DNA of 64,000 nucleotides, counting the filler, from Sanchytrium tribonematis (lineage: Eukaryota): the NCBI GenBank assembly GCA_018985235.1. It is 12 parts of 12 records of this genome, joined end to end, with 100 filler letters (N's around TTAATTAATTAA, not from the genome) between each part and the next. Parts side by side here need not be neighbours in the genome. Positions count along the whole stretch, not along the records: positions 53,102 to 56,756 come from JADGIG010000826.1; 11 more parts are not named here. The stretch is one strand, 5' to 3'. Shown piece after piece: positions 28,943-63,993 of this stretch. The translations under genes and the position numbers were made by a program. Below the pieces are notes generated by a model, which ran no database searches, was not told the origin of the DNA, and saw nothing but the letters and a program-made list of their open reading frames with translations. Positions within the stretch are counted from its first letter, which is position 1. Every line of letters begins with the position of its first letter.

Positions 28943-29989
28943 ATGATCTTATTAGTTTCACTTTTTCTTTCAAAATTAATAGAGTTGACACCAGAAACAT
29001 TTGACTCGTTTGTTGGCGGTGACAAACCAGCCTTTGTAAAATTCTATGCCCCATGGTGCGGACATTGCAAAGCCATGGCTCCAGATTTCTTGAAACTGGG
29101 TGATGCTTATGATGATGTTATCATTGGCAACTTGGATGCAGACAAGTACAAAAATTTAGGCGAAAAATATGGTGTTACAGGCTTTCCTACATTGAAGTTT
29201 TTCCCACCAAAAAGTTTAGAAGCTGAAGAATATAGTGGTGGTAGATCTTTGGATGATTTTACGGCCTATCTTAAAGAAAAGACGGGTGTGGGCGCGTCAA
29301 TCAAGAAGTCTAAATCATACGTATTGGATTTGACAGACTCATCTTTTTCAAAGCATGTCGACGGCAGCAAGGATGTATTGGTCGAATTTTATGCTCCGTG
29401 GTGTGGTCATTGTAAAAAATTGGCGCCGGAATATGAAAAGGTTGGTCTTGCATTCGCAAACGAAGAAAATTGCGTGGTAGCTAAAGTCAATGCGGAGGCA
29501 GAGACTAACGTTGCTTCCAAGTACGATATTAAAGGTTTCCCTACTTTAAAATTTTTTCCTAAGGGTGGAAAGAAAGAGCTTGAGTTTGATGGAAAACGTG
29601 ATGAAGCTGGAATAATCAAATATTTGAATGAAAAATGCGGCACCTCAAGACTACCGGGGGGTAAGTTAGAGTCTACTTTTGGTACTATTAAAGAGCTCAA
29701 TGACTTAGTTGTCGAATTTTTGAAATCTTCAACTCCTGCTACTGTTATTAAAAAAGCAACTACTGCGGCCACAAAAATCAATACCAATTTTTCTAAATAC
29801 TATTATAAAGTAATGGAAAAAATTGTTAAAAATAAGGATTTTGTGGCTTCTGAAATTACACGCTTAGAAGAAATTTTGAAAGGAGATTTATCTGCAGCCA
29901 AAAGAGACTCATTTTACATCAGAATGAACATCCTGAACTTATTTAAAGGTGGTGACAAATCTATTGAAGCGGATTCCGATGAATTATAA
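28943..29989 (+). CDS. Protein disulfide isomerase, ERp38/PDI-D type
   Basis: Two FYAPWCGHCK thioredoxin domains, ERp29-like helical C-terminus, ends SDEL. Confidence 0.93.
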   Translation: MILLVSLFLSKLIELTPETFDSFVGGDKPAFVKFYAPWCGHCKAMAPDFLKLGDAYDDVIIGNLDADKYKNLGEKYGVTGFPTLKFFPPKSLEAEEYSGGRSLDDFTAYLKEKTGVGASIKKSKSYVLDLTDSSFSKHVDGSKDVLVEFYAPWCGHCKKLAPEYEKVGLAFANEENCVVAKVNAEAETNVASKYDIKGFPTLKFFPKGGKKELEFDGKRDEAGIIKYLNEKCGTSRLPGGKLESTFGTIKELNDLVVEFLKSSTPATVIKKATTAATKINTNFSKYYYKVMEKIVKNKDFVASEITRLEEILKGDLSAAKRDSFYIRMNILNLFKGGDKSIEADSDEL

Positions 29990-31304: not shown

Positions 31305-33078
31305 CAGAGATCGGAAAAAATTAATTTAATTTCAAATTAATTGCAATTAATTAATTGAAATTGGTAATTGGAAAAGGCTAGTAATTGACCAATTAGTAAT
31401 AAAATGCTTCATATCCTTTGAATTCCACTTTTATTTGGATTATACAGGTTTCTGTAAGATTTTTACTCAATTCGACAATTTTTCTAACAGAATATGAACT
31501 CCAAATTGTCCCAAAAAGAAGTGGCACAATTTTACTTTGACTTTAGCAATTCAGAAAACAAAAGTCACAAGTGCAAGTGCGTTACTAGCATCACAATGCC
31601 AAAGAATGGTGGATACACCAACTATTTTAATCATGTTAGATTAAAACACAAAGATTATATTAGCGAGGTTACATCTGTAAGATCTTTTAGTCAGAAAAAA
31701 CTGTGTACAGATAGTTCTATTAATACATATAAATGGATACGCTGGATTCTTGAGGAAAATGTTCCTTTTACTTTTGTAGATTCCAAATGGACCCGGATGA
31801 ATAGCAATTTGAAAGCAATAAGTAGCAAAACTGTAACTGAATATATGAAAAAAATGGTTCCAATGGTAGAACAAAAAATAGCAGATTCTTTGCCAGAGAA
31901 AATTGGAATTATGTTTGATTCTTGGAAATCATTTGGTTCCAACTATGTTGGCATTTTTGCAATATTGTTAAATAAACAAGAACCGGTCTTAATCTCCCTC
32001 TCTGTGCTAGAAAATGAGGAGTCTCAAAATGCAGCCGAATTTAAAAAAAAATTAGAGACAATTTTACCACTTTTTGGTAAACAAATGAAAGATGTTTTGT
32101 TTTATGTATTAGACAATTGTTCCACCAATCAATCTATGAGTAATCTTTCTCATAAACCAATGATTGGATGTTATTCACATCGATTAAATTTAGCTGTAAG
32201 AAGATACATGATGAAGCACGAAACATTATTTGAGAGGGTACTACTTCTTTATTTAGTTAAATAACTTAATGAAAAAATTAAAAACATCAACTTTCTCTGC
32301 CTGGTTACGATCTGCAATGGGTGAAGGAAACAATTTAGTGGCAATTACAAGAAGTGAAACAAGATGGGATCAAGATTTTGCGATGCTTGATAGATATTTC
32401 CTTATCAATTGATTAACAAGTATCCAAATGATTTTGAGCATCACTTGTCAATTGATGCAGAAATAATTAAGCATAAATCATTTGAAAATGCAATAGTCAA
32501 AGTAATTGATGGCGAAGAAAATATACTAACTAAAATTGAAAAACTGGCTGTTAAGGGCTTTATGACTAACTCAAATTTTGATGAAGAATTTGTTACTGAT
32601 ACTGAATTAAATGAAGAATCGGATTGGACTGCTAAAATCCTTGAAACTCATGCTAGAAAAAGAAAAAAATTAAATAGCAAGTATGTAGATTTGAGCAACA
32701 TCAATCCAACATCAAATAGATGTGAAAGATTGTTTAGTCAGGTCCGGCATATATTTACCAGTGTTAGAAATCGTTTGTCTCCAATAATGTTGGAAAATGC
32801 TGTATTTTTAAAATACAACACTAGTTATTGGGATGTTTCCATTGTTCAAGCAGTGGAAAGAAACGAATTGGCAAGTGAAGTGGACAAAGACTGCGACATT
32901 ATTTCTGAATCATTGATCTAGTGCCAGAATATGAATAAATTGCGTACAAAAAATATTTTGATTGCAATTCAATTAATGCCAATTAATTGCAATTAATTAA
33001 TTGATTAATTAATTGATTAATTAATTGGAAGCGATTTAGGGCACTAATTTAATTGCAATTAAATTTTTCCGATCCCTG
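31305..33078 (+). mobile_element. hAT DNA transposon with TIRs and 8-bp TSD; internally deleted transposase with intron 32238-32256
   Basis: TSD atccattg at 31297-31304 and 33079-33086; TIRs CAGAGATCGGAAAAA / CAGGGATCGGAAAAA; FDSW, DNCSTN, CYSHRLNL, TRW and PTSNRCERLFS. Confidence 0.95.
32238..32256 (+). other. 19-nt GT-AG intron gtactacttctttatttag
   Basis: Continues the transposase as FER|LNNLMKKLKT...SETRW. Confidence 0.8.
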
Positions 33079-52966: not shown

Positions 52967-53101
52967 TCAATTGTGTTAGGGTAATTTACTCGGATACAAT
53001 TNNNNNNNNNNNNNNNNNNNNNNNNNNNNNNNNNNNNNNNNNNNNTTAATTAATTAANNNNNNNNNNNNNNNNNNNNNNNNNNNNNNNNNNNNNNNNNNN
53101 N

Positions 53102-53211
53102 TCGCAGAATGTTTAGCTGAAGAATTAACAAATGCTGCCAAAGGATCTTCCAGTTCTTACGCCATCAGAAAGAAGGATGAATTGGAAAGAGTTGCGAAGA
53201 GTAACCGTTAA
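53102..53211 (+). CDS. RPS5: 40S ribosomal protein S5 (uS7) C-terminus
   Basis: Translates to [35 protein letters not shown]; not in the ORF track. Confidence 0.95.
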
Positions 53212-53248
53212 AAAATAAACTATTTCAATTGCCGTTTGTTTGACAATG

Positions 53249-54013
53249 TCATTTATTAGTGTGCCATGCGATTTCATCGGCAGCATCTTGAAACCATTGA
53301 AACGCAAGCAATTCTGTTGTAGTCGGAATCTTCTTGACATCACAATTCATAGTGGCAACGAGTACTTTTTTCAGATGCTTAAATGCATCACCAGCCATTT
53401 TAATTCCAATATCGTCTTGATTTGTCTCAAAACACAATCCAGCAAAAATAAATTCACCATAAATCATTTTAAACAGCATGTTATACATTAATCTGCCATA
53501 ATAAATGATATTATATACTTTTGAGTTCATTTCTTCTATTCCCATTAAATGGAATACATTAGACGCATCTGTTTGTTTGTAAATCATCTTATTTTTGCTA
53601 ATATTTGCAATTCGATTTAATTTATACTTTCCATTACATTTGACAATACTAGCAGTCTCCAATTTAATAAAATATCCATTTACATGTAAATAATGAATGG
53701 CATTTAGAATATGGATTGACATTTCTTGAAATTCATGAAAATGATTTAATTTTGTGACAATCAAACACTTTTCGTAATACACAGCCATGTCATACCAGAG
53801 ATTCCATTGATGTTGTATAGGCTTCTCCATTCCCAATATTTCGATAATATGACGTGGTTTCTCGTCATAAATCATTTTGCAAATTTGTCTTCTTTCTTCA
53901 TCATATTTAAATAATCCCTTGACACATTTCTGTATAGTACCATCACTCATTTCACACCATTCATTTTCATAATGCACTACTTTTGAGATTAATAAAATTA
54001 AAAAGACCAACAT
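53249..54013 (-). CDS. Putative secreted pseudokinase (array member 1)
   Basis: MLVFLILLIS; YYEKC, AIHYLHVNG, IVKC..YKL, MNCD..PT..LL.F.WF. Confidence 0.75.
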   Translation of the reverse strand: MLVFLILLISKVVHYENEWCEMSDGTIQKCVKGLFKYDEERRQICKMIYDEKPRHIIEILGMEKPIQHQWNLWYDMAVYYEKCLIVTKLNHFHEFQEMSIHILNAIHYLHVNGYFIKLETASIVKCNGKYKLNRIANISKNKMIYKQTDASNVFHLMGIEEMNSKVYNIIYYGRLMYNMLFKMIYGEFIFAGLCFETNQDDIGIKMAGDAFKHLKKVLVATMNCDVKKIPTTTELLAFQWFQDAADEIAWHTNK

Positions 54014-54135
54014 GCTCCAAAAATGAAATAATTTGCCATTTATTCCATATTGGCTAAAATATACGCCATTTTGCTAAAAGAATACATCATCATGACACCA
54101 TTTCACATCTTCAAGCCATTTATTGATTTGCCTTG

Positions 54136-54864
54136 TCACTTGAACCATTTGAATTGCATTAATTTGGAGCTAGATGGAATTTGATTCAAATCGCAATTCA
54201 TGGTTGCAATCAGCACATCCACCAAATCATTAAATCTTTCATCATCGTCCATAATATCCAAATCATACATTGTAAACATTCTAAATCTCTTTGTTTTAAA
54301 ACACTTAACCACTGGTTCTGGTGCGGCTCTCTTATTTATCATCAAATGAAGCATCCGATACATCAATCTCCCATATAATATCATATTGTACACACTAGAA
54401 TTGATTTTATCAATCTTGAATCGACGAATATCCTCAGGTGCCTCTATTTCTGTTAATTCCCCAATAAATGCAATCCCACTCAATTTATAAATATCCCCGC
54501 ATTGCACAACATGTTTATACTCCATTCCCATATGATGGTACCCATTAGAATGTAAATAATGGATCCCATTAAGCACATCTCTACTCATTTTACGATATTC
54601 TTTTAATTTTTCAAATTTGGGTAAATATTTGCATTTTTCACTATACACTGCTATTTGTGATGTCCCCATCTCTGCTATCCCATATGATTTAGTAATATGA
54701 AGTGGTGGATTATTTAAAAATAGTCTTAAAAGTGTTATCCATTTTTCATCATTTTCATAAATATGCCTCTCGCAGTTATATTGAATATTATTCATTTTGC
54801 AATATAAACTATGATTTATTTTAGCAATTTGTAAACCAGAATGTAATGTCAAATATAGCAACAT
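54136..54864 (-). CDS. Putative secreted pseudokinase (array member 2)
   Basis: MLLYLTLHS; YSEKC, GIHYLHSNGYHH, CGDIYKL, YGRLMY, MNCD and FKWF. Confidence 0.75.
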   Translation of the reverse strand: MLLYLTLHSGLQIAKINHSLYCKMNNIQYNCERHIYENDEKWITLLRLFLNNPPLHITKSYGIAEMGTSQIAVYSEKCKYLPKFEKLKEYRKMSRDVLNGIHYLHSNGYHHMGMEYKHVVQCGDIYKLSGIAFIGELTEIEAPEDIRRFKIDKINSSVYNMILYGRLMYRMLHLMINKRAAPEPVVKCFKTKRFRMFTMYDLDIMDDDERFNDLVDVLIATMNCDLNQIPSSSKLMQFKWFK

Positions 54865-54991
54865 TGTAGAAATACAGATATATTTGCTTGTTTTAAAACA
54901 GGGCTCCTTTTCAGTCCATGTGATTTGCAATTCGTCATAATGGCATCATTTTACATCACATGATAATTGACTCAAAGATCATGATGATTTA

Positions 54992-55735
54992 TTATTGAAT
55001 CAAACACTTACTGTCTTTCCCTGTAAACCAATCCAATTTCATTATTTCATTTGCATTTTGATTCTTTTCCAATTCGCAATTCATGGCAAATTCAAAGACA
55101 CCCAATAACCTCTTAAATTGTTGTCTAGTTAATACTTTCTTGACTGGTTCATATTCAAAATAGTGTAAATGAGATACATCATAGCATATTTCATTTAATT
55201 CATCAAATTCTTTAAAATACAATAAATGATAAATCATTTTTGACCAACTCACTAAATCCCAATGAGTGGTTGTAATATCATCACTCATCATCCATTGCAC
55301 TGGTACGTTTATCATAGAATATGAAATATCATGAATTGTCAATTGTTTTGATAAATATTGAAAATCAGTTAATTTGTAAATATTGCCACATTTCACAATG
55401 GCATGTAAATGGATATTTAAATGGTATAATCCATGATTGTGAAGATATTGGATGCCTTGAAGACTATTTAATGTGATTTGATGTAATAATTCATGAGATA
55501 GGTGTGATTCTGATGTAAAATATAAATTATAAATGTTTTGACATTGCTCGGTATACCAGATGATATTGGAATGGGTATATTGTGTATTTAATAAACGGAT
55601 TAAGTAATTAGATGGATCAGACTCGTAATATTGATGTAGAGATTGCAATGCGTCATTTGGATATTTGTAAATCGATTTCGTGTATTCTGTGGATGGATTG
55701 ACGAGTGAGAATGTAATGCAAAAGAGATAAAACAT
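54992..55735 (-). CDS. Putative secreted pseudokinase (array member 3)
   Basis: MFYLFCITFS; YTEQC, GIQYLHNHGLYHLNI, CGNIYKLTDF, MNCE and LDWF. Confidence 0.78.
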   Translation of the reverse strand: MFYLFCITFSLVNPSTEYTKSIYKYPNDALQSLHQYYESDPSNYLIRLLNTQYTHSNIIWYTEQCQNIYNLYFTSESHLSHELLHQITLNSLQGIQYLHNHGLYHLNIHLHAIVKCGNIYKLTDFQYLSKQLTIHDISYSMINVPVQWMMSDDITTTHWDLVSWSKMIYHLLYFKEFDELNEICYDVSHLHYFEYEPVKKVLTRQQFKRLLGVFEFAMNCELEKNQNANEIMKLDWFTGKDSKCLIQ

Positions 55736-55801
55736 GTGAGATGTTTTATTTGTGATATGGCATCAAAAATGACATCAAATGATTTCCCCGTTTAAATAAT
55801 T

Positions 55802-56122
55802 TTATTTAAATCCCAATAAAACAGCACCCAATACGGTTAATGAGATGGTAGAAGATGAAGAAGCATACGATTGTGTTTCAGACGAATCTGTAGATTGTGT
55901 TTCTTGAGCAGATGAAGAATTGTCAGGAGCAGTTGCATTTTTACTTTCATCACCAGGATTAGAATGTGTTGCATGTGCAGGATTCTTTGGTGGTTTTTGT
56001 TGGACTTGATCATGCGTATGATTTTGAGTTGAGTTGGATGGATTCTTTTGAGTCAACATGTGAAGTGCGGTCAGAAGAACTGGATTTGTTTGTGCGGTAA
56101 TCAAAGAAACTGCAATCAACAT
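55802..56122 (-). CDS. Small S/T/Q-rich secreted, possibly GPI-anchored protein
   Basis: N-terminus MLIAVSLITA, polar core, Ser run and hydrophobic C-terminus ISLTVLGAVLLGF. Confidence 0.65.
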   Translation of the reverse strand: MLIAVSLITAQTNPVLLTALHMLTQKNPSNSTQNHTHDQVQQKPPKNPAHATHSNPGDESKNATAPDNSSSAQETQSTDSSETQSYASSSSTISLTVLGAVLLGFK

Positions 56123-56314
56123 TTAAATTGTGGATCCCTCATTCCCTTTAAATACATTTGTGAATCTGTTATTGGTACAAGCTTATTGGCAATTGATTGT
56201 AACCTGGACGCACAAATTCAATCGGGCGTGGCAAGCATTTGTGAAATACTTGGATAAACAATCTAAGTTGCATTATTTATTGTTCTTTTGCTTAAGTTGA
56301 TACAATCAATCGCT

Positions 56315-56756
56315 TCATTGACTTGCTTTTGAGGTAAACCATGGATCATTTAATATACCCTCCGCAGTAGGATATACTCCAATGTAGTTTGGAATTGTCT
56401 TTTTCTACAATAATTTTAACAATTCAAATTCTTCACTAGTCAAAATCTGTGAAACTCTTTCATTATACTGGAATATTTTAGAAAAACGCAAATCATACTC
56501 ATCGTAATGCAATTTATACAGGGCACAGTTATATTTTTCTCCGTATAAAACATGATACAGCATTTTAGCATACGCAACAATATCCAAATAATAGGTTTCA
56601 TACCTGCGATTTCTATCGCTATCATAAGGAAAATAGAGAATTTGGATAGTTTCAATGTTTTTAACACCAGAATATTCTAAAATACCTTCTCGAGGTTCGG
56701 TCAATTTGAATTGATCACCGCATCGCATCACATTTTCAGCTCTTACATTTCCATGC
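56315..56756 (-). pseudogene. Pseudokinase array member 4 (5' truncated) with an in-frame TAG at 56405-56407
   Basis: HGNVRAENVMRCGDQFKLTE and DIVAYAKMLY; the same frame continues YPTAEGILNDPWF after the TAG. Confidence 0.7.
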
Positions 56757-56856
56757 NNNNNNNNNNNNNNNNNNNNNNNNNNNNNNNNNNNNNNNNNNNN
56801 TTAATTAATTAANNNNNNNNNNNNNNNNNNNNNNNNNNNNNNNNNNNNNNNNNNNN

Positions 56857-60508: not shown

Positions 60509-60608
60509 NNNNNNNNNNNNNNNNNNNNNNNNNNNNNNNNNNNNNNNNNNNNTTAATTAATTAANNNNNNNNNNNNNNNNNNNNNNNNNNNNNNNNNNNN
60601 NNNNNNNN

Positions 60609-63600
60609 CTCTTTCCTTAACCATTTCGATGGCTTTTCCTACGTTTGGATGACGACTTAAAAAGTCTGCGTCCAGGTTGGAAGCTCCCTTAATATAGATA
60701 ATAGTGGTCACCCTGGATCCAAATAAATACCTGTGCCATTTTTTTAATGACTCCACAATACACAAACACTCCAACTCGGTGATGTGCCACTGCTGTTCTT
60801 CTCTGCTTAAAGTTCGGCTCCAGAAATAGAGTGGTCTCCCAGCTTGTAGTAAAACTGCACCTAATCCTCTACTGCTTGATGCATCAGTTCTAATTTCATA
60901 CGGTTTTGTAGAATCTGGATAATTTAAAAGAATGCGTTTAGATAATAATCTTTTAACCGTTTCGTATGCATTTCTCTGCTCTTCCCCCCATTCCCAATGC
61001 ACATTTTTTCGTAATAATTTCAAATAAGGCTGCGCAATAATGCTATAATTGGGAATATATCTAGCATAGAATTGAAATGCACCATGAATTGATGCTAACT
61101 GTGACTTGTTATTGGGTGTTTCAGCCTTTAACAATGCATCAATTTTTGCGGGATCTGGTGATATTCCATTTCCGTTAACTATGTGACCTAATAATTCCAT
61201 TTCGCTATATCCAATAGAACATTTAGATGGCTTCAATTTGTAATTATAGCTTCTTAATCTCAAAAAGAGTGCTCTAAGAGTTTGAAGCATCCCTTCAAAT
61301 GTCTTATCACCTGTGCTAATATCATCTTGATATGCTCTAGTCATTTTCAAACCTCGAGTCATTGTATTCATTTGTCTTTGAAATACAGATGCTGCATTAA
61401 CCCATCCAAAGGGAACAACTTTATATTGATAGATTTTGTCTCCAACACAAAATGCCGTATACTTCCTAGAGTTGATGTGTAAAGGTGCTTGCCAATATCC
61501 CGATCTTAAATCAAAGTGGCAGAAATAGCACATTCCTGCAAATCTTAAGATTTGCTCTTCTGTATCAGCTTGCGGATAATAATCTGGTAAAGTGATTCTA
61601 TTTAGTGGACGTAAGTCCGTACAGAATCGTTTCTCCGTGGTGTTCTTCTTATCAACAATAACAGTCTCATTGAGATATTCGGACGTCTCAATTTCTTCAA
61701 TTACACCCTCTCGTTCCATCTTTTCTGCATTATCCAACAAGATTTGCTGCTCTAAAGGACTTCGTTTTCTTTTCTTTTCTTTATATGGTTCCTCATTAGT
61801 GAGTTTGATCTCCACAGGATCAATGTTGGCACCCAATTTTCCGGTAAATACATCTAAAAATTCTTCGCATAATGATTTGATTGCCTGAACTTGATCTGGT
61901 TCCAATGACTTGTTTATATTTAAATCTGACCAAACTTGGTCAAGGGTGCTATCTCTTTTGAAATCATCGTAATGAACAATATCAGCTTCTCCAGGCAAGG
62001 CCTCAGTGAATTGTTCTTCGTACTCTTCTTTGACATATTCTATATCGTCGACTGTATCTGTTTCGATTTTATATTTTGCATCTTTTTCTACTGCTTCTTT
62101 AACAGGACTACTTTCAAGGTTTCCGGTGCGAACTTCCATAGTTTCAGCATCACTGACTGATAATTGACGAATCTCTCTTAAAGGTACAAGGTCATCGTCT
62201 GGAAATTTCGACATTTGATATTCATTAGTTTGAATCCTCTTACCATGTTCTACTGTCAAGAAGCATGATACTGGTCCATTGTCCGGCTTGACCCTTATAT
62301 TCAATTTTACTTCTTTAGACCCAAATTTTACGATTTCTTTCGGACCATCAATTACAATTTTCAAAGGCACTAAAGAACAAACTCCCAAAATTATATCATT
62401 TGTACAATTTTTCACTATTTCAAATGGAATATTTGCTTTTGAATCATGATTAATGTTGCAGATCATGTAAACTCTTCCTAGAATATCCTCATTTTGATTA
62501 TTGGCAACCTTAATTTTCTCGAAAGGAGATTTGTACACTGTGACTCCCGGTAAATACTTTAGCATCCAAGTGACAGTGACTAAATTTATGTCTGATCCTG
62601 AGTCCAAGAGCATCTTGGTGTGCTGATGTTCCAATTGCCCATCTACTTCAATAGCATGTGACAGTGTCATTTTATTTTCTTTAAAATCTCTGGCGGACAT
62701 TGATCTGATTGCAGTAATGCTTCTTCCAAACATCTGTTGGATTGTATTTGATTCTCTAGTATTTCCATTATTTGGGTTTCTAGTATCGCCTTGAGTTGTT
62801 TTTGCTGAATTGTTCCCTGTTTCCGGACAATTATAATTTCTGTGCCCTGTTTTCATACATCCGAAACAAAGATTTTGGGCTCGACACAATTCTATTTGCT
62901 CTGGAGTAAGTCGCTTAACGCTTGGAGTTATTGTTTTAGGTACGTTGTTTCCACTTTCACCAGATCTCACTTTATCAAAACTATTTCCCTTTTCGTAGTA
63001 AAGTCTGCCTAAAAACTGTTTTGTATTCCTTTCTACTGAAATTAATAGAGATGCAGCACCATCGACTGTACGAGGAATCTCATTATCAGTTTTGTTGCTC
63101 AAAGCCATTTTCAATTTTGGATGGCATCTATTTAAAAGTCTGTATACAAGGTTCTCTTCCTTTAATGCCAATTTTGCTTGCTCCAAATGTGATGCACCAT
63201 CAGATGCTAATGGATTGTTAACTATAAACTGTAATTTCTTTCTTAATAACTTCATTCTCGTTACAAATTGTCTAATAGTTTCATCATTCTTCTGATCGAT
63301 ACTCATTAGCCGCTGAGTTGTATTTGTTAATCGTGATCGTGGTCTGTATGCTATGATCAATCCCTTTGATAATTTAGTAAACGTGTTGTATCTTTCTCCG
63401 GCAAATAATTGACTTTCCTTGCCTGTCAATAATCCACTAATAACATTAGCCCAGTCATCAATATGTACCCCATATCTTCGTAGTTGTACATCGACATCAC
63501 TTAAAAATGCATCCACATCTGCGTGTACTGAATCTGCATCTGGATCAAAGAACACTTTCCCATTCAATTTCTCAAAAGCATCTTTAGCCACTTGTTGCCG

Positions 63601-63993
63601 CAACATCAATTCTAAAGAGCTTGGTTTCTCTTTCTCAGTTTTTTGCTCTGTTTCTGATTTCTTGTTAACCTCATCAATGTCCATTAGTGAGTCCATTCTT
63701 GTGTCAATTGACATCATATCATCATATTCAATTTCTTTTCGTATTCCTAATTCATTTCTGTATTTGTTTTGTTCATTCTTCTTTAATTTTTCTAATCTTC
63801 TTAATTTTGATTCTGTTTCTAATTTAATTTTTCTATAATCATTTAACTGCGCATTCAAATTCTCTAAAGTTTTTCTCGACTGCCCAACAACATTAGATGA
63901 CCCCTCGGAGGCGCCATGTACAAGATTGGGGCTTTCTAGTGTTGTGGCAGGTGTTGAGATGGTCCTAATTACCATATCCTCATCCATTCCCAT
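60609..63993 (-). mobile_element. Ty3/Gypsy single-ORF gag-pol (gag, CCHC, protease, RT, RNase H), truncated before integrase
   Basis: CFGCMKTGHRNYNC, LLDSGS, RFCTDLRPLN, DLRSGYWQ, PFG, YQDD, TDASS and DADFLSR. Confidence 0.93.

What the first reader, a model, noticed from the sequence alone, without database searches (positions are those of the whole stretch)
53249..56756. Tandem array of secreted pseudokinases, a candidate effector family
Seen: four co-oriented, diverged paralogs with kinase C-lobe landmarks (Y.E.C, I.YLH..G, C...YKL, terminal ..WF). The HRD/DFG positions are replaced by HLN/DFQ, HMG/GIA, HGN/EPR or are unrecognisable, and no Gly loop or VAIK is evident. The three complete genes start with a hydrophobic leader and share cysteines. 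A small GPI-like secreted gene is interleaved and one copy has an internal stop. Known: parasites deploy secreted kinases and pseudokinases as effectors (Toxoplasma ROP5/ROPK, Plasmodium FIKK). Inference: a lineage-specific birth-and-death family of host-directed pseudokinases.
Basis: partly seen in the sequence, partly recalled or inferred. Interest (0 to 1): 0.72.

Follow-up and report, generated by a model that had tools for sequence, protein, structure and literature searches.

The report
Secreted pseudokinase array in algal parasite
Four tandem genes, likely from a tiny fungus that parasitises algae, encode kinase-related proteins that lack the catalytic residues and are likely secreted; they belong to an apparently undescribed family of at least 13 genes that would work as non-catalytic binding proteins at the host interface, much as Toxoplasma's secreted pseudokinases do.

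Summary
One 3.65-kb contig carries three complete minus-strand paralogs (21-36% identical), a 5'-truncated fourth copy with an in-frame stop, and a small Ser/Thr-rich ORF. AlphaFold models of two copies are protein-kinase folds (Z 18.3 and 19.8) lacking beta-1 and the Gly loop. All four lack the catalytic Asp. The ten nearest non-self relatives among 1.84 billion representatives are all labelled Sanchytrium tribonematis, a sanchytrid fungus parasitising algae. That gives at least 13 genes, several in tandem, forming one side of a tree branch. One subclade keeps Lys, HLDIKPxN and DFE without a GxGxxG loop, like Toxoplasma WNG kinases; the window's subclade is dead. Ten of 11 members have a short hydrophobic leader like the organism's own ER protein PDI, and family-specific cysteines mostly come and go in pairs. 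No signal-peptide predictor, expression data or localisation was available, so 'secreted' is likely and 'host-directed effector' is untested. A second sequence version of the locus differs mostly at non-synonymous sites, too few to show selection. Verdict: an independent fungal counterpart of parasite secreted kinase/pseudokinase families, not shown to be a member of any.

The parts
53249..54013 (-). g1, 254 aa pseudokinase: about 10-aa hydrophobic leader, then beta2-beta3 (Cys20, Cys30), alphaC, beta4-5 and C-lobe; no beta1/Gly loop, no catalytic Asp, DFG-Asp replaced by Arg
   Evidence: ORF; AlphaFold pLDDT 84.8, pTM 0.84; Foldseek kinases E 2.2e-8; Z 18.3, rmsd 3.3, 215 aligned to CHK1; motifs
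54136..54864 (-). g2, 242 aa pseudokinase, closest to g1; weak leader; HMG/GIA at HRD/DFG; six family cysteines
   Evidence: ORF; z 45 to g1 (12); ESM Atlas features match kinase clusters at 0.94-0.96 (20); not folded
54992..55735 (-). g3, 247 aa pseudokinase lacking beta1, Gly loop and beta2; HLN/DFQ; four family cysteines
   Evidence: Pfam Pkinase E 6.1e-5, below cut-off; AlphaFold pLDDT 86.7, pTM 0.85 (89); Foldseek PIM1 E 2.0e-10 (99); Z 19.8, rmsd 3.0, 213 aligned, starting at CHK1 residue 29 (104)
55802..56122 (-). Small 106-aa ORF: hydrophobic start, Ser/Thr-rich (28%) middle, hydrophobic tail; possible GPI-anchored surface protein, not established
   Evidence: hydropathy; no Pfam family below E 0.045 (8); only relative P0094, whose two ends are in other frames
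56315..56756 (-). g4, C-lobe fragment of a fourth copy (HGN/EPR), 5' part beyond the contig end, broken by an in-frame TAG at 56405-56407
   Evidence: z 14.9 to g3 (12); 133 of 146 positions identical to P0005 (58); stop present in run X1 contigs
53104..53211 (+). 3' end of ribosomal protein uS7/S5e gene, convergent with g1; shows that the array sits beside a housekeeping gene
   Evidence: Pfam PF00177 E 5.9e-9 (87)
53002..53101 (.). Artificial spacer (N-TTAATTAATTAA-N): left end of the contig
56757..56856 (.). Artificial spacer: right end of the contig, which truncates g4

Best explanation
The four genes are tandem paralogs of a kinase-derived family, found only in the algal parasite Sanchytrium among the hits named here, whose window copies lack the catalytic aspartate, are predicted to fold as Gly-loop-less kinases, are likely secreted, and would act as non-catalytic binding or scaffolding proteins at the parasite-alga interface. 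Steps: (shown) paralogy, tandem order, loss of the catalytic Asp in all four copies and of the DFG-Asp in three, one broken copy, and a sister subclade that keeps Lys/Asp/Asn/Asp. (Predicted) kinase fold without beta1/Gly loop in g1 and g3. (Inferred) a roughly 10-residue signal peptide sends them through the ER, where paired cysteines form disulfides that take over from the lost APE-Glu/alphaH-alphaI-Arg bridge; they leave through the rhizoid that pierces the algal wall; the variable alphaF-alphaH surface of the C-lobe binds partners, either host proteins or the active sister kinases, as ROP5 does; duplication, divergence and loss follow the host interaction.
For: Fold; family profile matches 480 PDB sequences at E<=1e-5, best 3is5 at E 3.3e-12 over profile positions 51-271 of 276. 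Dead active site. Family and organism: the 10 best non-self hits of 76 (19) are all EukProt Sanchytrium tribonematis, four on one contig and two on another. P0010, left out of the profile, scores 266.7 bits against 126.0 for the best outsider. The 15 family rows form one side of a branch, SH-aLRT 95 in a quick tree of 44 rows. Leader: 10 of 11 full-length members pass an ad hoc test (8 of 11 with annotated starts), against 4 of 34 other window ORFs and 1 of 61 generic kinase hits; the window's PDI has the same very short leader. Cysteines: the beta2-beta3 pair is present together in 8 of 12 rows that have an N-terminus and lost together in 3 or all 4 of the others depending on the alignment; the two C-lobe cysteines are present in 12 of 15 rows, lost together in 2 and singly in 1. 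Lifestyle: zoospores encyst and penetrate the algal wall with a short rhizoid (PMC8371127 section 14). Full-length open frames at 21-36% mutual identity imply selection on the protein.
Against: No signal-peptide predictor was run; the leader test and its threshold are mine, paralogs are not independent, and the g2 leader fails it. In the g1 model, residues from about 8-10 align with CHK1 from residue 16-19, so part of the leader lies where beta1/Gly loop would be. The hinge and beta7 cysteines also occur in several generic kinases that have no leader, so that pair says nothing on secretion; disulfide geometry could not be measured. No delivery motif or host target was found. Second-version differences are 16 non-synonymous to 5 synonymous codons in g2-g4 against an N/S site ratio of 4.1-4.5, which cannot be told from neutrality, and only 40 of 78 rows were seen. 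One copy is broken. The closest structural analogue, WNG1, phosphorylates parasite proteins, not host proteins (PMC6442604 passages).
Confidence: 0.5

Rival explanations
1. A secretory-pathway kinase/pseudokinase system that serves the parasite itself. The catalytic subclade would phosphorylate the parasite's own secreted or wall proteins (for example Ser/Thr-rich proteins like the interleaved ORF), and the dead copies would be regulators or structural parts of the cyst or sporangium wall, like WNG1 and BPK1.
For: The sister subclade keeps HLDIKPxN in 4 of 4 full-length members, DFE in 3 of those 4, a Lys three residues after the beta3 Cys in 5 of 5 rows, and no GxGxxG (48, 77, 102). WNG kinases also lack the Gly loop, carry Glu for the DFG Gly and act on parasite proteins; BPK1 is a cyst-wall pseudokinase (PMC6442604 passages). 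Disulfides suit a lumenal or extracellular site better than host cytosol (established knowledge).
Against: Tandem arrays at 20-36% identity, gene loss and restriction to one species among the named hits look more like host-driven turnover; WNG kinases are conserved across coccidia. The small ORF may not be a stable gene (66, 69, 70).
Confidence: 0.27
2. Redundant duplicates of a secreted kinase decaying under relaxed selection; the window copies have little function.
For: In-frame stop in g4; frameshifted second version of the small ORF (66, 69, 70); non-synonymous share of second-version differences near the neutral expectation; sanchytrid genomes evolve fast (PMC8371127 section 6).
Against: Three copies keep 242-254-aa open frames, confident folds and conserved cysteines despite 21-36% identity. 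Neutral decay to that distance would be expected to leave stops and frameshifts (inference).
Confidence: 0.13
3. Intracellular degenerate kinases whose hydrophobic N-terminus is a remnant of beta1 or a membrane anchor, not a cleaved signal peptide.
For: The leader is only about 8-11 residues with no basic n-region, and it overlaps the position of beta1/Gly loop in the g1 superposition.
Against: The window's PDI, an ER protein with thioredoxin and ERp29 domains, has a leader of the same length and style. The leader is kept across both subclades whatever the length of the N-lobe. It has low pLDDT in both models.
Confidence: 0.1

Closest known systems
[quoted passage not shown]
   Same: Parasite family of secreted kinase folds lacking beta1/Gly loop, with active members and pseudokinases, and Glu in place of the DFG Gly (DFE in 5 of 15 family rows here)
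   Different: WNG kinases are coccidian, conserved across that group, and replace the Gly loop with a helical lid. Here the models start directly at beta2 (g1) or beta3 (g3) after the leader, and there is a cysteine pair in the beta2-beta3 hairpin. No WNG/BPK1 chain was among the listed best matches. The likeness looks convergent; activity and localisation are untested.
Coccidian rhoptry kinases (ROPK): ROP5, ROP2/8, Eimeria ROPK-Eten3 (PMC3682881, passages)
   Same: Lineage-specific expansion, signal peptides, mix of active and dead copies, tandem arrays (Eten3: 5 genes at 32-52% identity, one active), a C-lobe cysteine pair, and a polymorphic C-lobe surface
   Different: No alphaF 'WC' motif and no N-terminal extension; proteins are only 240-350 aa; no hit to Pfam Kinase-like PF14531 at E<=0.01 in 13 family proteins; sanchytrids have no rhoptry (own knowledge).
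Expanded kinase families among predicted host-exposed proteins of two microsporidia (PMC5423893, passages)
   Same: Fungus-related parasite with a species-level kinase expansion enriched in targeting signals
   Different: Intracellular animal parasites; no sequence link was tested beyond one Enterospora protein (P0048), which falls outside the family in the tree.
Phytophthora CRN8 kinase effector (PMC3426532, search listing and start of abstract) and Plasmodium FIKK (recalled)
   Same: Kinase domains deployed by a parasite against its host
   Different: CRN8 is an active modular CRN effector, and FIKKs are active exported kinases (recalled). The window proteins have room only for a leader plus the kinase fold.

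Membership tests
Eukaryotic protein kinase superfamily (fold) | Bilobal kinase fold, alphaC to alphaI | tested here: met
   Models of g1 and g3; Z 18.3 and 19.8 to CHK1/PIM2; profile against PDB E 3.3e-12 (47)
Active protein kinase (window copies) | Catalytic-loop Asp (HRD) | tested here: not met
   K/G/N/N in g1-g4
Active protein kinase (window copies) | DFG Asp and catalytic-loop Asn | tested here: not met
   DFG-Asp is R/G/D/E and Asn is S/H/A/N in g1-g4; no copy has both
Active protein kinase (window copies) | beta3 (VAIK) Lys | tested here: inconclusive
   The Lys invariant in the catalytic subclade (Cys+3, 5 of 5 rows) is Gly in g1 and His in g2; a register shifted by one would give Lys/Arg (77, 102)
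Pseudokinase | No phosphotransfer activity | not testable with these tools
   Inferred from motif loss only
Secreted protein | Cleavable signal peptide | tested here: inconclusive
   Hydropathy heuristic only: 10 of 11 members, 4 of 34 other window ORFs, 1 of 61 generic kinases; PDI has a like leader. No predictor on hand
WNG kinases | No Gly loop / beta1 | tested here: met
   0 of 11 full-length members with GxGxxG in the first 130 aa (2 have a bare GxG), against 39 of 63 generic hits with GxGxx[GSAT] (102); models lack beta1. The catalytic subclade was not folded
WNG kinases | Helical lid replacing beta1 | tested here: not met
   Only the low-confidence leader precedes beta2 in g1 and beta3 in g3
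WNG kinases | Common descent with the coccidian WNG clade | not tested
   No WNG sequence was in the tree
Rhoptry kinases (ROPK) | alphaF 'WC' motif with a disulfide to the alphaG-alphaH insert | tested here: not met
   No WC at the end of alphaF in the alignments; the cysteine pair lies in the alphaG region and after alphaH
Rhoptry kinases (ROPK) | Match to the Kinase-like profile PF14531 | tested here: inconclusive
   No hit at E<=0.01 in 13 family proteins; the link of this profile to ROPKs is recalled
Host-translocated effector | Delivery into, and action on, the host cell | not testable with these tools
   No expression, localisation or target data
GPI-anchored protein (small ORF) | Signal peptide, omega site, hydrophobic tail | tested here: inconclusive
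   Hydrophobic ends and 28% Ser/Thr (44), but both ends are in other frames in P0094

The most novel reading that the evidence does not exclude
A fungus has independently evolved a WNG-like system: secreted protein kinases that work without a Gly loop (Lys, HLDIKPxN, DFE, disulfide-braced N-lobe) together with arrays of dead paralogs, both released through the rhizoid to rewire the algal host. It would be the first secreted kinase/pseudokinase effector family in a zoosporic fungus and a second natural solution to catalysis without a Gly loop.
Probability: 0.25. Interest if true: 0.8.

Novelty: new variant of a known kind. Interest (0 to 1): 0.58.

Why it matters
Sanchytrids form a recently named fungal phylum with about half their proteins unannotated (PMC8371127 section 6), and the main text of that genome paper has no occurrence of 'kinase' or 'effector'. 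A secreted kinase/pseudokinase expansion gives named, testable candidates for how a zoosporic fungus handles an algal host. It also suggests that the apicomplexan strategy (active plus dead secreted kinases, loss of the Gly loop, DFE) arose again in fungi. The window's copies escape standard annotation: none of g1-g3 reaches the Pfam kinase cut-off.

Tried and rejected
No whole genome is held, so no genome-wide count was possible. Word-index searches were insensitive: g2 found only itself among 66 candidates, and the 12-sequence profile found 2 family members among 10 hits. No RNA holder was listed for the stretch. Long stretches of g2 and g3 had no listed second version in run X1; this is not read as evidence. 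A viral origin was considered because Atlas and some generic hits resembled giant-virus kinases. It is not supported: BFVD gave only generic kinases at 16% identity or less with no standout, P0016 had no viral contig, the alignment scan of viral contigs could not run, and these kinases do not group with the family. A non-standard code for the g4 TAG was rejected: long ORFs end in TAA 22, TGA 8, TAG 1, and the near-identical P0005 is open there. Pfam ASNSD1-SEP on g1 (E 1.6e-4, below cut-off) was rejected as chance, given the fold. ROP, WNG/BPK1 and FIKK chains are not among the listed best structural matches, which excludes nothing; the wide VIA search never ran. No Amoeboradix protein was among the 27 of 73 non-self hits whose names I looked up; whether that proteome is in the library is unknown. 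P0028 had no locus in the JGI metagenomes. The careful tree did not finish; the quick tree is reported. Supplements of PMC8371127: the Sanchytrium contig names were not found, but file 4 was cut when stored and file 2 is not searchable, so orthogroup data there may bear on the range. Literature searches and passages of PMC8778642 showed no description of this family or of secreted pseudokinases in zoosporic fungi; the library lacks most subscription journals. Earlier scan notes held nothing that bears on this. The Atlas look-up of the small ORF did not complete.
Full report
Context. The window is a string of small contigs joined by N-TTAATTAATTAA-N spacers; the finding fills one contig, 53102-56756. 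The DNA is gene-dense, about 30-39% G+C, reads in the standard code and carries eukaryotic housekeeping genes. No whole genome is held. The contig starts with the 3' end of a uS7/S5e ribosomal protein gene, followed tail to tail by the array.

Observation. Three complete minus-strand ORFs (g1 254, g2 242, g3 247 aa), a 106-aa ORF and a fourth copy lie 66-192 bases apart. g4 is cut by the contig end and has an in-frame TAG at 56405-56407; it was read with X at the break. All six pairs of g1-g4 beat 300 shuffles (z 4.6-45.0); the small ORF is unrelated.

Fold. g3 alone gives a sub-threshold Pfam kinase hit (E 6.1e-5) and weak PDB kinase hits (best E 0.0029). A 12-sequence family profile matches 480 PDB sequences at E<=1e-5, best 3is5 at 3.3e-12 from alphaC to alphaI. 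AlphaFold models of g1 (pLDDT 84.8, pTM 0.84) and g3 (86.7, 0.85) match protein kinases by Foldseek and VIA: Z 18.3, rmsd 3.3, 215 aligned to CHK1 for g1, and Z 19.8, rmsd 3.0, 213 aligned for g3. g1 has four N-lobe strands and g3 three, and g3 aligns only from CHK1 residue 29. So beta1 and the Gly loop are missing in both, and beta2 as well in g3 (strand names from my knowledge of the kinase fold). g2 and g4 were not folded. No kinase group stands out as nearest.

Active site. Against canonical kinases in one alignment, the catalytic Asp is K, G, N, N, the loop Asn is S, H, A, N and the DFG Asp is R, G, D, E in g1-g4. The alphaH-alphaI Arg is lost in 15 of 15 family rows and the APE Glu in 13 of 15. 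The window copies are therefore predicted pseudokinases.

Family and organism. A profile of the four copies against 1.84 billion representatives gave 76 hits; after the three self hits, the next ten (E 1.1e-46 to 1.4e-9) are all EukProt Sanchytrium tribonematis proteins. Four lie on one contig and two on another. The rest are generic kinases; I looked up names for 27 of the 73 non-self hits. P0005 is 133 of 146 identical to g4, so the window is most likely this species or a very close relative. Counting g4 and P0005 as one locus gives at least 13 genes, a lower bound. In a quick tree of 44 rows the 15 family rows form one side of a branch (SH-aLRT 95). It splits, with weaker support (89 and 93), into a subclade that keeps HLDIKPxN (4 of 4 full-length members; DFE in 3 of them) and a mostly degenerate subclade holding all window copies. 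No full-length member has GxGxxG (0 of 11), and no member's Pfam alignment starts before profile position 41. Sanchytrids are epibiotic parasites of freshwater algae that penetrate the wall with a short rhizoid (PMC8371127 sections 6 and 14).

Secretion. No predictor was on hand. In an ad hoc test (early 7-residue hydropathy of 1.5 or more and at most one charge in the first ten residues; threshold chosen by me), 10 of 11 full-length members pass, or 8 of 11 with annotated starts. Only 4 of 34 other window ORFs and 1 of 61 generic kinase hits pass; g2 narrowly fails. The leaders are very short, but the window's own PDI (thioredoxin plus ERp29 domains) has a leader of the same length and style. 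Two cysteine pairs are nearly family-specific and mostly come and go together: beta2-beta3, and alphaG-region with post-alphaH. A third pair (hinge, beta7) is shared with leaderless kinases and is uninformative. Disulfide geometry was not measurable.

Turnover. Contigs of DNA run X1 show a second version of the stretch at about 40% of depth, for example 18 differences in 275 bases in g1; summed depth is near that of the flanking contig, which suggests alleles or two genotypes (inference, and X1 may be the window's source). The second version matches P0005 and P0094, which share one contig. In it g4 is open, but the small ORF's ends fall in other frames. Of the 40 of 78 rows shown, those in g2-g4 give 16 non-synonymous and 5 synonymous codon changes against an N/S site ratio of 4.1-4.5. 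This is compatible with relaxed or mixed selection and is no proof of positive selection. The six changes seen in g2 are all non-synonymous and lie at residues 185-207, between alphaF and alphaH, but only some stretches were listed.

Mechanism. Shown: dead active sites, tandem expansion, gene loss, and a catalytic-looking sister subclade. Predicted: Gly-loop-less kinase fold. Inferred: ER entry, disulfide bracing, release at the rhizoid, and binding through the variable C-lobe surface. I put about 0.5 on a role at the host interface, 0.27 on service to the parasite's own secreted or wall proteins, 0.13 on decay and 0.1 on an intracellular role.

Comparison. ROPKs share the expansion, the mix of active and dead copies, tandem arrays and a C-lobe disulfide near the ROP5 surface that binds host IRG proteins, but the WC motif and N-terminal extension are absent here (PMC3682881 passages). 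WNG kinases share secretion, loss of beta1/Gly loop, DFE and a pseudokinase member, yet act on parasite proteins and have a helical lid (PMC6442604 passages). Two microsporidia have expanded kinase families among predicted host-exposed proteins (PMC5423893 passages). The family works like these systems but is not shown to be a member of any. Searches found no description of it, and the genome paper's main text has no 'kinase' or 'effector'; parts of its supplements could not be searched.

Verdict. Novelty: new variant of a known kind. Interest 0.58.

Noticed in passing
P0028 (unnamed ENA record): A 298-aa kinase with a short hydrophobic leader, HLDIKPDN/DFG and cysteines at four of the family's columns, but keeping the APE Glu and alphaH-alphaI Arg (48, 77, 84). 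It may be a related secreted kinase of another lineage; it did not group with the family in the tree (55) and had no JGI locus (85).
   Followed up: partly
P0048 (Enterospora canceri): Microsporidian kinase-like protein with an N-terminal hydrophobic stretch and a degenerate catalytic loop (HGN); outside the family in the tree.
   Followed up: partly
P0010: One 443-aa ORF holds the C-lobe of one family unit followed by a second whole unit that starts with its own leader-like stretch: a fusion, or two merged tandem genes.
   Followed up: partly
window 55796-56193; run X1 record 1: A 6289-base contig that continues left of the window contig also matches both ends of the small ORF on the opposite strand with a different middle, hinting at a paralog with conserved leader and tail.
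   Followed up: no
window 28943-29989: Protein disulfide isomerase (thioredoxin + ERp29) with a leader of only about 10 residues and no basic n-region, ending in SDEL; signal peptides in this organism may be unusually short and missed by predictors (10, 18, 44).
   Followed up: partly
window 45775-48516, 60553-63993, 31494-32921: Mobile elements: a LINE-like reverse transcriptase ORF, an LTR-type gag-pol ORF (RT and RNase H), and two ORFs that look like a split hAT-type transposase by eye (no Pfam hit at 1e-4 for the first) (10, 18).
   Followed up: no
window 22759 onwards: Eleven artificial spacers join contigs of about 3.65-3.8 kb, so gene neighbourhoods across spacers are meaningless.
   Followed up: yes
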